Shown piece by piece: positions 34,286-35,400 of a stretch of 64,000 nt of DNA. A program made the translations under genes and the position numbers. The stretch comes from Candidatus Nomurabacteria bacterium RIFCSPLOWO2_01_FULL_42_17. Its GTDB lineage: Bacteria > Patescibacteriota > Minisyncoccia > Phycocordibacterales > UBA9973. Each line of letters opens with the position of its first letter. Positions within the stretch are counted from its first letter, which is position 1. Below the pieces are notes generated by a model. It was not told the DNA's origin, searched no databases, and was given only the letters and a program-made list of their open reading frames with translations. The stretch lies in contig MFVE01000005.1 of NCBI GenBank assembly GCA_001785985.1, positions 112,533-176,532 of the forward strand, written 5' to 3'.

Positions 34286-35338
34286 GTGTATAATGGAGGT
34301 ATGCCTAAGTCGTATATTGGAAAAAGAGTAAAATTCTTAAATAAGATAGAACAAAAAGAATTCATGAAACTGGCTGAAGAAATAATTGGGGCTGGCACTA
34401 AAGGAATAGCCTTAATAAGTAAGGTAGGTATAAGACAAATATCAGACTGGAAAAATGCAAAAAGTACATTATCATTCTATGCTTTTGAAAAGTTGTTGAT
34501 TGCAACTAAAATTCCTCGCCCGAATTCAATAAGGATTATAGACCAATATGCTCACTCAAGATCTGCCGGCAAAAAAGGACTTGTCGCCGTACTTAAAAAG
34601 TATGGAAAATTTCCAAAAAACGAAAAAATTAGGCGAGCAAATTGGGAAAAATGGTGGAAAACTGTTGGGATATATCAAGAAAGAGAAATATTTAAAAGAA
34701 AATCAATCAAAATACCAAAGAAGAGCATAGAACTTGCAGAATTATGTGGGATTCTAATTGGTGACGGAGGGATAACAAAAAGGCAAGTAAGAATTACTCT
34801 GAATTGTGAAACTGATAAAATATATTCAAAATATGTAGTAAAACTTTTCCAAAAACTTTTTGGTACAAAACCAAAAGTGTATAAAATTAAAGATTCCAGA
34901 GCGTTAAATATTTGTATTTCTAGGAGTGATTTAGTGGATTTTCTTTTTAAACATGGTTTAAAAGTAGGAAATAAATTAAAACAAAATCTTTCAATTCCTG
35001 AATGGATTATAAAGTCTGAAAAATATACAACCTCTTGCATAAGAGGAATGGTTGATACTGATGGTTCAGTTGTTATTGAAACTCATCTCATTAAAAATAA
35101 AAAATACACATATCCTCGCCTTAATTTTACAAGCGCTTCACCTATCCTTGTAGAACAAACGGTTCAAGCATTACAAAAATTTGGTTTTCATCCAAAAATA
35201 AGAAGGGGCGGAAGATCAGTTCAACTTGAAAATATAAAAGAAATATGGGAGTATTTCAAAAGGGTTGGAACAAGTAACCCAAAACATATAAATAGATTAG
35301 GGAGGAGTGGCTCGAGAGGTTTAAGGCACCGCTCTTGA
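34286..35338 (+). CDS. LAGLIDADG-family homing endonuclease (two-motif type). The C-terminal roughly 12 codons are read from the 5' half of tRNA-Ser, and the stop codon TGA is the tRNA anticodon.
   Basis: Motif 1 LAELCGILIGDGGI and motif 2 IRGMVDTDGSVV. The ORF is very AT/K-rich and overlaps the tRNA at 35301-35388. Confidence 0.7.
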   Translation: MYNGGMPKSYIGKRVKFLNKIEQKEFMKLAEEIIGAGTKGIALISKVGIRQISDWKNAKSTLSFYAFEKLLIATKIPRPNSIRIIDQYAHSRSAGKKGLVAVLKKYGKFPKNEKIRRANWEKWWKTVGIYQEREIFKRKSIKIPKKSIELAELCGILIGDGGITKRQVRITLNCETDKIYSKYVVKLFQKLFGTKPKVYKIKDSRALNICISRSDLVDFLFKHGLKVGNKLKQNLSIPEWIIKSEKYTTSCIRGMVDTDGSVVIETHLIKNKKYTYPRLNFTSASPILVEQTVQALQKFGFHPKIRRGGRSVQLENIKEIWEYFKRVGTSNPKHINRLGRSGSRGLRHRS

Positions 35339-35388
35339 AAAGCGGAAACCGGGTAACTGGTTCGTGAGTTCGAATCTCACCTCCTCCG
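35301..35388 (+). tRNA. tRNA-Ser (anticodon TGA), type II
   Basis: GGAGGAGTGGCTCGAGAGGTTTAAGGCA-CCGCT-CTTGAAA-AGCGG-long variable arm-GGTTCGAATCTCACCTCCTCCG. Confidence 0.8.
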
Positions 35389-35400
35389 CAAAGATATATT

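What the first reader, a model, noticed from the sequence alone, without database searches (positions are those of the whole stretch)
34286..35390. LAGLIDADG homing endonuclease ORF fused onto tRNA-Ser(UGA), with the ORF stop codon being the tRNA anticodon
A 350-codon, very AT-rich ORF with two LAGLIDADG motifs (LCGILIGDGGI; MVDTDGSVV) runs directly into the tRNA-Ser gene that starts at 35301. Its last roughly 12 codons are tRNA sequence and its TGA stop is the UGA anticodon. The next 800 bp are also AT-rich. This looks like a free-standing homing-endonuclease islet integrated at a tRNA gene, and transcription of the tRNA may depend on the ORF's mRNA.
Basis: partly seen in the sequence, partly recalled or inferred. 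Interest (0 to 1): 0.65.

Follow-up and report, generated by a model that had tools for sequence, protein, structure and literature searches.

The report
Homing endonuclease gene abutting tRNA-Ser
A selfish DNA-cutting enzyme gene sits between the promoter and the 5' end of a serine tRNA gene, and in this group of ultra-small bacteria that exact spot turns out to be used again and again by at least four unrelated families of such genes.

Summary
Its TGA stop (35336-35338) is the anticodon.

The overlap is a by-product. The real regularity is the link between this gene family and tRNA-Ser:
- The family is large: 846 clusters at 50% identity with E<=1e-30.
- In 79 of 80 Patescibacteria species genomes sampled, a tRNA-Ser gene (GCU, UGA or CGA) follows on the same strand, within 62 nt in 77 of them.
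- Protein clades track the isoacceptor.

The gene is not fixed. Of 42 informative metagenome loci with the same tRNA core, 9 carry this gene and 19 carry no nuclease gene, including close relatives. At the same spot 12 carry an HNH gene, 1 a GIY-YIG gene and 1 a PD-(D/E)XK gene.

Three loci keep a 5' fragment of a different tRNA-Ser allele just upstream of the nuclease gene. This suggests that a promoter-nuclease-tRNA cassette replaced a resident tRNA.

Best reading: a free-standing homing endonuclease gene in the tRNA-Ser leader, read from a promoter ending 6 nt before its ATG and probably co-transcribed with the tRNA. No description was found in the searchable literature. The closest precedent is phage T4 SegB.

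The parts
34266..34294 (+). Sigma-70-like promoter, TTAACA-17 nt-TATAAT, with a TG extended -10. The -10 box ends 6 nt before the ATG, which predicts a leaderless or near-leaderless mRNA.
   Evidence: It is the best site in 33700-36900, matching 11 of 12 positions. The same geometry, a -10 box ending exactly 6 nt before the ATG, is reported as the best promoter match in about 50 of 67 family members and is seen in the HNH genes. The -35 region (TAGCAT/TTAACA + AAAA) is shared with the tRNA-Ser promoter of loci that lack the LAGLIDADG gene: L114 and L113 (empty) and L097 (GIY-YIG).
34301..35338 (+). Free-standing LAGLIDADG homing endonuclease gene, 345 aa. It has an N-terminal helix-turn-helix-like domain, a Trp-rich linker and a two-lobe LAGLIDADG core. 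The last 12-13 residues are encoded by the tRNA gene.
   Evidence: Pfam LAGLIDADG_3 E 2.9e-11. PDB profile hit to I-Tsp061I (2dch) at 2.4e-8. AlphaFold2 mean pLDDT 91.5, with the tail 336-345 at pLDDT 33. Foldseek finds I-Tsp061I at 2e-12, plus intein endonucleases, I-DmoI and I-AniI. 846 clusters at 50% identity reach E<=1e-30.
34322..34543 (+). N-terminal helical domain, about residues 8-81, helix-turn-helix-like.
   Evidence: The model has helices at 15-29, 32-40, 44-51 and 59-69. Several homologues carry Pfam HTH_3 or HTH_19 hits.
34742..34768 (+). LAGLIDADG motif 1, LCGILIGDG, with catalytic Asp155.
   Evidence: Translation. G154, D155 and G156 are invariant in 111 sequences.
35039..35065 (+). 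LAGLIDADG motif 2, IRGMVDTDG, with catalytic Asp254.
   Evidence: Translation. D252, T253, D254 and G255 are invariant in 111 sequences.
35301..35389 (+). tRNA-Ser(UGA) gene, class II with a long variable arm and no encoded CCA. It is the anchor of the cassette and probably its target.
   Evidence: ARAGORN. Rfam tRNA 48.7 bits. The same tRNA core occurs in 53 metagenome loci, with or without a nuclease gene upstream.
35336..35338 (+). TGA that serves both as the tRNA anticodon and as the ORF's stop codon.
   Evidence: The position is incidental: homologues stop at +5 to +136, or 3-38 nt upstream of the tRNA when it abuts the ORF.
33803..34255 (-). RuvX gene, divergent from the cassette. It is the conserved host backbone next to tRNA-Ser(UGA) in this lineage and marks the upstream edge of the insertion.
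   Evidence: Pfam RuvX 9.8e-29. RuvX lies next to tRNA-Ser(UGA) in most tRNA-anchored loci, filled or empty.

Best explanation
The ORF is a free-standing LAGLIDADG homing endonuclease gene. It occupies the few bases between the tRNA-Ser(UGA) promoter and the mature 5' end of the tRNA.

Shown:
- The protein has the LAGLIDADG fold with both catalytic Asp residues.
- Its family is nearly always found directly 5' of a tRNA-Ser gene, on the same strand.
- Presence is patchy among genomes that carry the same tRNA.
- Three other nuclease families occupy the same spot in other genomes.
- Some loci keep a 5' fragment of a different tRNA-Ser allele just upstream of the nuclease gene.

Inferred:
- The enzyme cuts tRNA-Ser loci that lack it, either in the tRNA gene or at the promoter/tRNA junction.
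- Repair from a filled donor copies the cassette (promoter, nuclease gene, tRNA-Ser), so the linked tRNA allele spreads with it.
- Abutting the tRNA keeps the nuclease gene tightly linked to its target and costs the host little, because RNase P can still release the tRNA from a co-transcript.
- The mRNA is leaderless, starting at or near the A of ATG 34301, and continues into the tRNA.
- Because this sub-clade has no stop codon of its own, RNase P cleavage at 35301 would leave a non-stop mRNA. That would keep enzyme levels low.

The stop-equals-anticodon overlap is a passive result of frame and tRNA sequence.
For: Enzyme identity.

Link to tRNA-Ser: of 80 protein-anchored loci from species-representative genomes, 77 have a tRNA-Ser within 62 nt of the conserved protein end on the same strand (54 GCU, 22 UGA and 4 CGA once the window, L001 and L002 are added). 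L026 and L052 have one 186 and 298 nt away. L015 and L076 have one that is cut by the contig end. L073 is the only exception. Clades track the isoacceptor.

Patchiness: 45 distinct loci share the tRNA core, and 42 are informative. Of these, 9 carry LAGLIDADG, 12 HNH, 1 GIY-YIG, 1 PD-(D/E)XK and 19 no nuclease gene. Among close relatives at the same locus, L114 (RuvX 76% identical) is empty, L097 (82%) carries GIY-YIG, and L102 (81%) carries LAGLIDADG.

Decay: HNH copies are frameshifted (L093) or truncated (L117).

The HNH family is independently linked: all 5 protein-anchored look-ups were followed by tRNA-Ser(UGA).

Scars: L097 keeps the resident promoter plus tRNA nt 1-36. L075 keeps nt 1-23. 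L014 keeps about nt 1-28 of a GCU-type tRNA. L052 has a decayed pseudo-tRNA followed by an intact copy.

Other points: tRNA identity tracks nuclease-protein identity (rho 0.77) better than RuvX identity (rho 0.44). Promoter geometry. No intron was detected.
Against: - No cleavage site is known. Filled and empty loci can carry identical tRNA sequence at positions 8-47, so self-immunity cannot come from a tRNA polymorphism there. That points to a site spanning the 5' junction. The scars, however, end at nt 23-36, inside the tRNA. The two clues do not agree.
- Among close relatives the nuclease protein and RuvX diverge roughly in parallel (rho about 0.6; window vs L001 is 78% and 77%). Inheritance is therefore largely vertical over short ranges, and no recent transfer is shown.
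- The family is intact and well conserved over deep divergence, which a host function would also explain.
- Co-transcription, leaderless initiation and the non-stop effect rest on sequence geometry only. About 11 of 91 long ORFs in the window show the same -10/ATG spacing, so it is a general trait of this genome.
- RuvX identity saturates near 40%, which weakens the correlation argument.
Confidence: 0.75

Rival explanations
1. A domesticated LAGLIDADG/helix-turn-helix protein with a host function tied to tRNA-Ser. Examples would be a regulator of the tRNA-Ser promoter or a DNA-maintenance factor, analogous to WhiA. It would be inherited vertically with the tRNA.
For: The family is intact across deep divergence. 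Its divergence roughly parallels RuvX in close relatives. Isoacceptor-specific clades could reflect ancient paralogy. The N-terminal helix-turn-helix domain sits next to its own promoter. WhiA appears among the structural matches.
Against: Both catalytic Asp residues are invariant, whereas WhiA has lost them (the WhiA point is from general knowledge). The gene is absent from 33 of 42 informative loci with the same tRNA core (19 of them have no nuclease gene at all), including close relatives. Unrelated HNH, GIY-YIG and PD-(D/E)XK genes sit at the same place. tRNA-fragment scars point to insertion or replacement events.
Confidence: 0.12
2. A nuclease with another role, such as anti-phage defence or a toxin. 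On this view it parks in the tRNA-Ser leader only because that is a strongly expressed, harmless place, without targeting the tRNA gene.
For: Four nuclease families share the site. The leader is removed by RNase P, so insertions there should be neutral (inference).
Against: Specificity for tRNA-Ser is near absolute in protein-anchored samples: 79 of 80 LAGLIDADG loci and 5 of 5 HNH look-ups. Yet the same loci hold about 118 other tRNA genes. A safe-harbour effect should not single out serine. All four families are the classic homing endonuclease families. No partner defence genes are nearby.
Confidence: 0.06
3. An integrase-type genomic islet, or an intron-borne ORF, at the tRNA gene. This includes the reader's idea of an island with a partial tRNA duplicate at its edge.
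For: tRNA genes are common island targets (general knowledge). The AT-rich DNA extends 800 bp beyond the tRNA.
Against: The insertion is on the 5' side. There is no integrase. The window holds no partial tRNA-Ser copy. No group I or II intron was found by Rfam, even at E<=1. The downstream ORF belongs to a separate Nomurabacteria-only family that is absent from the other nuclease loci.
Confidence: 0.02

Closest known systems
Phage T4 SegB, a free-standing GIY-YIG homing endonuclease in the T4 tRNA gene cluster (PMC2330249)
   Same: It is a free-standing nuclease gene next to tRNA genes. Its recognition site includes conserved tRNA gene sequence (the T-psi-C stem-loop). The nuclease gene and the neighbouring tRNA genes are inherited together by gene conversion (abstract).
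   Different: SegB is in a phage, not a bacterial chromosome. It is GIY-YIG, not LAGLIDADG. It does not abut or overlap a tRNA, has no serine specificity, and no fixed position in a tRNA leader.
LAGLIDADG homing endonucleases in rRNA introns and insertions: archaeal I-Tsp061I and I-DmoI, and the rRNA insertion sequences of candidate phyla radiation bacteria (PMC11270868)
   Same: Same fold and catalytic motifs; I-Tsp061I is the best PDB match. Same host group, and the same logic of targeting a conserved structural-RNA gene.
   Different: Those genes lie inside the RNA gene, in an intron or excised insertion. This one lies outside, in the 5' leader, has its own promoter and start codon, and has an extra N-terminal helix-turn-helix domain.
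Homing endonucleases in tRNA group I introns, such as I-Ssp6803I (PD-(D/E)XK, tRNA-fMet) and the HNH genes in Patescibacteria tRNA-Asn introns (PMC13011429)
   Same: The tRNA gene is the home site. PF11645, which PMC13011429 reports in cyanobacterial tRNA-fMet introns, also occurs at the tRNA-Ser flank in L134.
   Different: No intron is present here. The nuclease gene relies on 5' leader processing rather than splicing. That paper reports no serine tRNA case.
WhiA (DUF199), a domesticated LAGLIDADG protein with a helix-turn-helix domain
   Same: It combines a LAGLIDADG scaffold with a helix-turn-helix domain, and it appears among the structural matches.
   Different: The domain order is reversed. 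WhiA lacks the catalytic acidic residues (general knowledge), whereas they are invariant here. WhiA is a core gene and is not linked to a tRNA.

Membership tests
LAGLIDADG homing endonuclease (single-chain, two-motif) | Two LAGLIDADG motifs, each ending in a catalytic acidic residue | tested here: met
   LCGILIGDG (Asp155) and IRGMVDTDG (Asp254). Both are invariant in 111 homologues.
LAGLIDADG homing endonuclease (single-chain, two-motif) | Alpha-beta-beta-alpha-beta-beta-alpha core fold, two lobes | tested here: met
   AlphaFold2 pLDDT 91.5. Foldseek matches I-Tsp061I at E 2e-12 with a target-normalised TM-score of 0.74, and also I-DmoI, I-AniI and intein endonucleases. Pfam PF14528 scores 43.9 bits against a cut-off of 22.5.
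LAGLIDADG homing endonuclease (single-chain, two-motif) | Site-specific double-strand cleavage of a long target | not testable with these tools
   Needs an in vitro cleavage assay on empty-site DNA.
Free-standing (intron-less, intein-less) homing endonuclease gene | Not embedded in an intron or intein; has its own start codon and promoter | tested here: met
   No intron model matched at E<=1. A promoter-like site ends 6 nt before the ATG, here and across the family.
Free-standing (intron-less, intein-less) homing endonuclease gene | Presence/absence polymorphism at one conserved genomic site among related genomes | tested here: met
   Among 42 informative loci with the same tRNA core, 9 are filled and 19 have no nuclease gene. 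The empty L114 has RuvX 76% identical to the window.
Free-standing (intron-less, intein-less) homing endonuclease gene | Horizontal spread by gene conversion: phylogeny incongruent with the host, or conversion tracts | tested here: inconclusive
   Nuclease-protein and RuvX identities correlate (rho about 0.6). The tRNA tracks the nuclease protein better than RuvX does. Scars of foreign tRNA alleles in L097, L075 and L014 suggest replacement events. No recent transfer was shown.
Integrase-mediated tRNA-targeting genomic island | Integrase gene plus a direct repeat of the tRNA 3' end at the far boundary | tested here: not met
   No integrase ORF. No partial tRNA-Ser copy in the window. The insertion lies 5' of the tRNA.
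Group I intron-encoded endonuclease in a tRNA gene | ORF lies within a self-splicing intron that interrupts the tRNA | tested here: not met
   The tRNA is uninterrupted and no intron model matched.
WhiA-like domesticated LAGLIDADG regulator | Loss of catalytic residues, C-terminal helix-turn-helix domain, core-gene distribution | tested here: not met
   Catalytic Asp residues are invariant. The helix-turn-helix domain is N-terminal. Distribution is patchy.

The most novel reading that the evidence does not exclude
In Patescibacteria the 5' edge of tRNA-Ser genes is a dedicated homing niche. At least four nuclease families compete there as compact promoter-nuclease-tRNA cassettes. Homing replaces the resident tRNA-Ser gene with the cassette's own allele, so selfish nucleases drive turnover of an essential tRNA gene across the phylum. 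Enzyme output is throttled because RNase P cleavage of the co-transcript removes the stop codon, which lies inside the tRNA.
Probability: 0.3. Interest if true: 0.75.

Novelty: new variant of a known kind. Interest (0 to 1): 0.62.

Why it matters
Free-standing homing endonuclease genes are known mainly from phages. In cellular genomes, homing endonucleases are usually thought of as passengers of introns and inteins.

Here a chromosomal, intron-free niche is used on a large scale in one of the largest bacterial radiations. The niche is the few bases between a tRNA-Ser promoter and the tRNA. The users are the LAGLIDADG family (846 clusters at 50% identity with E<=1e-30), an HNH family of about a thousand proteins, and occasional GIY-YIG and PD-(D/E)XK genes.

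Consequences:
- It offers a natural set of compact single-chain meganucleases whose targets can be guessed: tRNA-Ser genes and their leaders.
- It explains a recurrent annotation gap. The identical protein is on record only from an ENA source, while the neighbouring gene is in NCBI.
- It may explain why assemblies often break right after this tRNA.
- It makes a question testable: can selfish nucleases drive allelic replacement of an essential tRNA gene?
- A protein gene whose stop codon lies inside a tRNA also gives a simple setting for studying competition between translation and RNase P processing.

Tried and rejected
- Host/element incongruence. First tblastn numbers suggested that RuvX and nuclease-protein identities disagreed. 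Global alignments showed them roughly parallel (rho 0.62; window vs L001 78% and 77%), so I dropped strong incongruence as evidence.
- Immunity polymorphism in the tRNA. Filled, empty and HNH-occupied loci share the same sequence at tRNA positions 8-47. The A/T and G/T variants in the D-loop occur in all classes. No resistant allele could be defined.
- Island boundary repeats. blastn-short with 140 distinct tRNA-Ser sequences against all loci, with the annotated tRNAs masked, found no partial copy in the window.
- Hidden intron or other structured RNA. Rfam at E<=1 over 34100-36300, and over the L097 scar region, found only the tRNA.
- Downstream AT-rich ORF (35425-36192). No Pfam or NCBIfam hit. 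Homologues are 23 hypothetical proteins, and the only source names among them are Nomurabacteria. It is absent from the other tRNA-anchored loci, so it is not part of the element.
- Low-GC region 25.5-27.3 kb. Two ordinary-looking ORFs that are not nuclease-like. Not followed further.
- Leaderless geometry as a nuclease-specific trait. Rejected, because about 11 of 91 long ORFs in the window show it too.
- Literature. Four searches and four papers gave no description of nuclease genes at tRNA-Ser 5' flanks. The library lacks most subscription journals, so absence is not proof.
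Full report
**1. The observation**

The ORF listing gives an ORF at 34286-35338 on the + strand, 350 aa from a GTG. ARAGORN places tRNA-Ser(UGA) at 35301-35389 with the anticodon at tRNA position 36, which is 35336-35338. Rfam confirms the tRNA at 48.7 bits.

Translating 35282-35338 gives KHINRLGRSGSRGLRHRS*. The last 12-13 codons are therefore tRNA sequence, and the TGA stop is the anticodon. The two motifs translate as LCGILIGDG (34742-34768) and IRGMVDTDG (35039-35065).

The true start is almost certainly ATG 34301, giving 345 aa. 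All homologues begin there (MPKSY...), and a -10 box lies inside the GTG extension.

The ORF is 30.9% GC and the following ORF 29.9%. The window mean is 39.7% with sd 4.0 for 1-kb windows.

A 100%-identical copy of the neighbouring ORF's product is named from Candidatus Nomurabacteria bacterium RIFCSPLOWO2_01_FULL_42_17. The window is therefore from that genome or a near-identical Patescibacteria genome.

**2. What the protein is**

- Pfam LAGLIDADG_3 matches at E 2.9e-11.
- A profile of the family hits the archaeal intron endonuclease I-Tsp061I (2dch) and VMA intein endonucleases in the PDB.
- An AlphaFold2 model built on 111 homologues has mean pLDDT 91.5. It shows an N-terminal four-helix domain, a helical Trp-rich linker and a two-lobe core.
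- Foldseek returns I-Tsp061I (E 2e-12), intein endonucleases, I-DmoI, I-AniI and, further down, WhiA.
- The catalytic Asp of each motif (D155 and D254) and their neighbouring Gly residues (G154, G156, G255) are invariant in 111 sequences.
- The tRNA-encoded tail (residues 336-345) has pLDDT 33, so it is predicted to be disordered.

The family is large. A profile search of 1.84 billion cluster representatives found 846 proteins at E<=1e-30.

**3. The real regularity: this family sits 5' of tRNA-Ser**

The C-termini of homologues down to 38% identity already looked like translated tRNA (...RRSGSRGLRHRS...GGVAREV...GEVAERLKAASC).

I then ran tblastn and ARAGORN on them.

- In 77 of 80, a tRNA-Ser gene starts within 62 nt of the conserved protein end, on the same strand.
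- With the window and two further loci (L001, L002) added, the anticodons are GCU 54, UGA 22 and CGA 4.
- L026 and L052 have the tRNA 186 and 298 nt away.
- L015 and L076 have it cut off by the contig end.
- L073 is the one real exception. There the gene lies divergently next to two tRNA-Ser genes on the other strand.

No member was found next to a non-Ser tRNA, although all the loci held at that point contain about 118 other tRNA genes. A neighbour-joining tree splits into a UGA clade (with CGA nested inside) and a GCU clade, with three exceptions.

The stop codon lies inside the tRNA in 33 of 80 members: UGA 17 of 22, CGA 4 of 4, GCU 12 of 54. Its position ranges from 38 nt upstream of the tRNA start, for members that abut the tRNA, to +136. 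Within the window's own sub-clade it moves from +38 (the anticodon) to +23 when the tRNA D-loop reads GGTTGA instead of GGTTTA. The stop-equals-anticodon overlap is therefore a passive result of frame and tRNA sequence, not a designed feature.

**4. Is it fixed or patchy?**

I scanned the metagenome collection with the window's tRNA core (positions 8-47, two degenerate positions). This anchors on the tRNA and is blind to what lies upstream. It returned 53 loci, of which 45 are distinct and 42 informative:

| Gene at the 5' flank of the tRNA | Loci |
|---|---|
| LAGLIDADG (this family), always abutting the tRNA | 9 |
| HNH | 12 |
| GIY-YIG | 1 |
| PD-(D/E)XK | 1 |
| No nuclease gene | 19 |

The other three families sit at the same place, on the same strand, and mostly end within a few bases of the tRNA start (-5 to +24; L107 and L135 end 73-97 nt upstream). 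Pfam confirms them: HNH PF01844 at 23.1 bits against a cut-off of 21.4, GIY-YIG at 48.7 bits, and PDDEXK_5 (PF11645) at 66.5 bits. PF11645 is the family that PMC13011429 reports in cyanobacterial tRNA-fMet introns.

Divergent RuvX next to tRNA-Ser(UGA) is the conserved backbone. Close relatives at that locus differ in state:

| Locus | RuvX identity to window | State |
|---|---|---|
| L114 | 76% | Empty: 138 bp between RuvX and the tRNA |
| L097 | 82% | GIY-YIG |
| L102 | 81% | LAGLIDADG |
| L125 | 83% (partial RuvX) | LAGLIDADG |

Some HNH copies are decaying: L093 is frameshifted and L117 truncated.

The HNH family is itself large, with 979 proteins at E<=0.001. I picked five members by protein alone and looked up their contigs. 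All five are followed within 6-44 nt by tRNA-Ser(UGA).

**5. Scars**

I ran blastn-short with all tRNA-Ser sequences against the loci, with the annotated tRNAs masked. Read together with the sequences themselves, this gave:

- L097: the resident promoter plus nt 1-36 of a different tRNA-Ser(UGA) allele (GGATGGG...), then the GIY-YIG gene, then a complete tRNA of the window's type (GGAGGAG...).
- L075: nt 1-23 of a different tRNA-Ser allele lies about 30-90 nt upstream of the LAGLIDADG gene (the start codon is uncertain).
- L014: about nt 1-28 of a GCU-type tRNA-Ser lies upstream of a LAGLIDADG gene whose linked tRNA is Ser(CGA).
- L052: the LAGLIDADG gene is followed by a decayed pseudo-tRNA-Ser and then, roughly 150 nt on, an intact tRNA-Ser(GCU).

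These are best read as replacement of a resident tRNA-Ser by an incoming nuclease-plus-tRNA unit after a break in or near the resident gene. Consistent with this, tRNA identity tracks nuclease-protein identity (Spearman 0.77) better than RuvX identity (0.44) across 13 loci. RuvX saturates near 40%, so this is only suggestive.

**6. Expression geometry**

The best sigma-70-like site in 33700-36900 is TTAACA-17-TATAAT at 34266-34294. It ends 6 nt before the ATG. In about 50 of the 67 family members examined, the best promoter match has its -10 box ending exactly 6 nt before the ATG, usually with a TTGnnn box 16-18 nt upstream. The HNH genes show the same spacing (tgtggTATACTggatgaGTG).

This spacing predicts that transcription starts at or next to the A of the start codon, giving a leaderless mRNA. 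It is a general trait of this genome, since about 11 of 91 long ORFs have it.

The -35 region (TAGCATAAAA) is shared between the filled loci (window, L125) and the tRNA-Ser promoter of loci that lack the LAGLIDADG gene: L114 and L113 (empty) and L097 (GIY-YIG). In L114 the -10 box lies 13 nt, and in L097 9 nt, before the tRNA or the tRNA scar; in L113 it is about 85 nt away. The nuclease gene thus occupies the gap between the tRNA promoter and the tRNA.

With no spacer and no comparable promoter between ORF and tRNA, the tRNA here is most likely made from the ORF's transcript and released by RNase P. This step is an inference. It follows that RNase P cleavage at 35301 would remove the stop codon and leave a non-stop mRNA. 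That would limit enzyme production. This too is an untested inference.

**7. Explanation and rivals**

The best-supported reading (about 0.75) is a selfish, free-standing homing endonuclease cassette specific for tRNA-Ser loci. Tight abutment keeps the nuclease gene linked to its conserved target and costs the host little.

The cleavage site is unresolved. Identical tRNA sequence in filled and empty loci argues for a site spanning the 5' junction. The scar breakpoints at nt 23-36 argue for a break inside the tRNA.

The rivals are:
- A domesticated host factor (about 0.12). It is favoured by strong conservation and roughly vertical descent among close relatives. It is disfavoured by the invariant catalytic residues, the patchiness, the alternative occupants and the scars.
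- A nuclease with another role that merely uses the leader as a safe harbour (about 0.06). The near-absolute serine specificity argues against it.
- An integrase island or an intron (about 0.02). There is no integrase, no att-like repeat and no ribozyme.

**8. Comparison with what is known**

The closest precedent is phage T4 SegB. It is a free-standing GIY-YIG endonuclease in a tRNA gene cluster, its site includes conserved tRNA sequence, and it spreads its own gene together with the neighbouring tRNA genes (PMC2330249).

LAGLIDADG genes in the rRNA insertions of candidate phyla radiation bacteria (PMC11270868) and nuclease genes in Patescibacteria tRNA introns (PMC13011429) are related in host and logic. 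They lie inside the RNA gene, however, and neither paper mentions tRNA-Ser flanks.

Four literature searches found no description of this arrangement. The library is incomplete, so this is not proof of absence.

I rate the finding a new variant of a known kind: free-standing homing endonuclease genes in a chromosomal tRNA-leader niche shared by several families.

**9. Verdict**

- The wider pattern found here is more interesting than the single locus. Interest 0.62.

Noticed in passing
L083, L086, L087, L096, L098, L105, L107, L119, L126, L135 (tRNA-anchored) and L136-L144 (protein-anchored): A very uniform HNH endonuclease family of about 158 aa, with 979 proteins at E<=0.001 (the best 120 listed are 65-79% identical to the query). 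It sits directly 5' of tRNA-Ser(UGA), usually in the order RuvX, DUF5652, HNH, tRNA. Some members also read into the tRNA (tails ...GGVARVV, ...GGMAREV).
   Followed up: partly
L097 (minus strand, about 1797-2250): The order is: resident promoter, the first 36 nt of a foreign-type tRNA-Ser(UGA), a GC-rich stretch, an 82-aa GIY-YIG gene, then a complete tRNA-Ser(UGA). This is the clearest scar of a tRNA replacement. No intron model matched.
   Followed up: partly
L134, upstream of tRNA-Ser(UGA): A 125-aa PD-(D/E)XK protein ends 3 nt before the tRNA. It matches PF11645, which PMC13011429 reports in cyanobacterial tRNA-fMet introns.
   Followed up: partly
L071 6840-7055; L039 5134-5373; L059 5148-5297: Small GIY-YIG-like ORFs lie elsewhere near tRNAs. 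One ends 10 nt before a tRNA-Cys(GCA). Two lie just downstream of the tRNA-Ser that carries a LAGLIDADG gene. Other tRNAs may have their own nuclease neighbours.
   Followed up: no
L085, L118, L093, L135: the 60-90 nt upstream of tRNA-Ser(UGA): A conserved non-coding element (GAGTAT..TATATTCAAGT...hairpin...ACACTTGATA) lies directly before the tRNA in several loci. Its role is unknown; it could be a processing signal or a remnant.
   Followed up: no
L114, the 138-bp RuvX/tRNA spacer: The empty-site spacer contains a long inverted repeat (CCCGTTATAAATAGGTCGCGGTC ... GCGACCGCGATTTCTAACGGG). It could be a small mobile element or a terminator.
   Followed up: no
window 35425-36192 (+): An AT-rich 255-aa ORF (29.9% GC) with no Pfam or NCBIfam match. 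Its 100%-identical protein is A2917_02865 of Ca. Nomurabacteria bacterium RIFCSPLOWO2_01_FULL_42_17. Only 23 homologues were found, and the only source names among them are Nomurabacteria. It is absent from the other tRNA-anchored loci.
   Followed up: partly
window 34301-35338: The identical protein (P0001) is on record only from an ENA source, while the neighbouring gene's product is in NCBI, UniRef and nr. The endonuclease gene may be unannotated in the GenBank record because it overlaps the tRNA.
   Followed up: no
L003, L007-L010, L015, L017, L020, L025, L031, L032, L059, L063, L066, L069, L070, L076, L080: In 18 of the 80 protein-anchored loci the contig ends within 300 nt after the tRNA-Ser. 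This suggests assemblies break here, through strain-level presence/absence or shared tRNA sequence.
   Followed up: partly
window: starts at 4990, 9549(-), 58433(-), 7363(-), 15591(-), 18503(-) and others: About 11 of 91 long ORFs have a -10-like hexamer ending exactly 6 nt before the start codon. This suggests frequent leaderless transcription in this organism.
   Followed up: partly
window 25250-27300: The lowest-GC stretch of the window (27-30%) holds two ORFs of 334 and 242 aa that are not nuclease-like by eye. It was not characterised.
   Followed up: no
window 33250-33793 (+): Two small adjacent ORFs of 94 and 85 aa, separated by one base, sit just upstream of RuvX and look like a toxin-antitoxin pair. 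They differ from the PilM-RuvX context of relatives such as L001.
   Followed up: no
L113/L127, between the tRNA-Ser promoter and the tRNA: In this locus with no nuclease gene, the promoter's -10 box is followed 6 nt later by ATG and a 19-codon ORF (MEGSPTGKSRKRIKWLLKK). It could be a remnant or a small leaderless gene.
   Followed up: no
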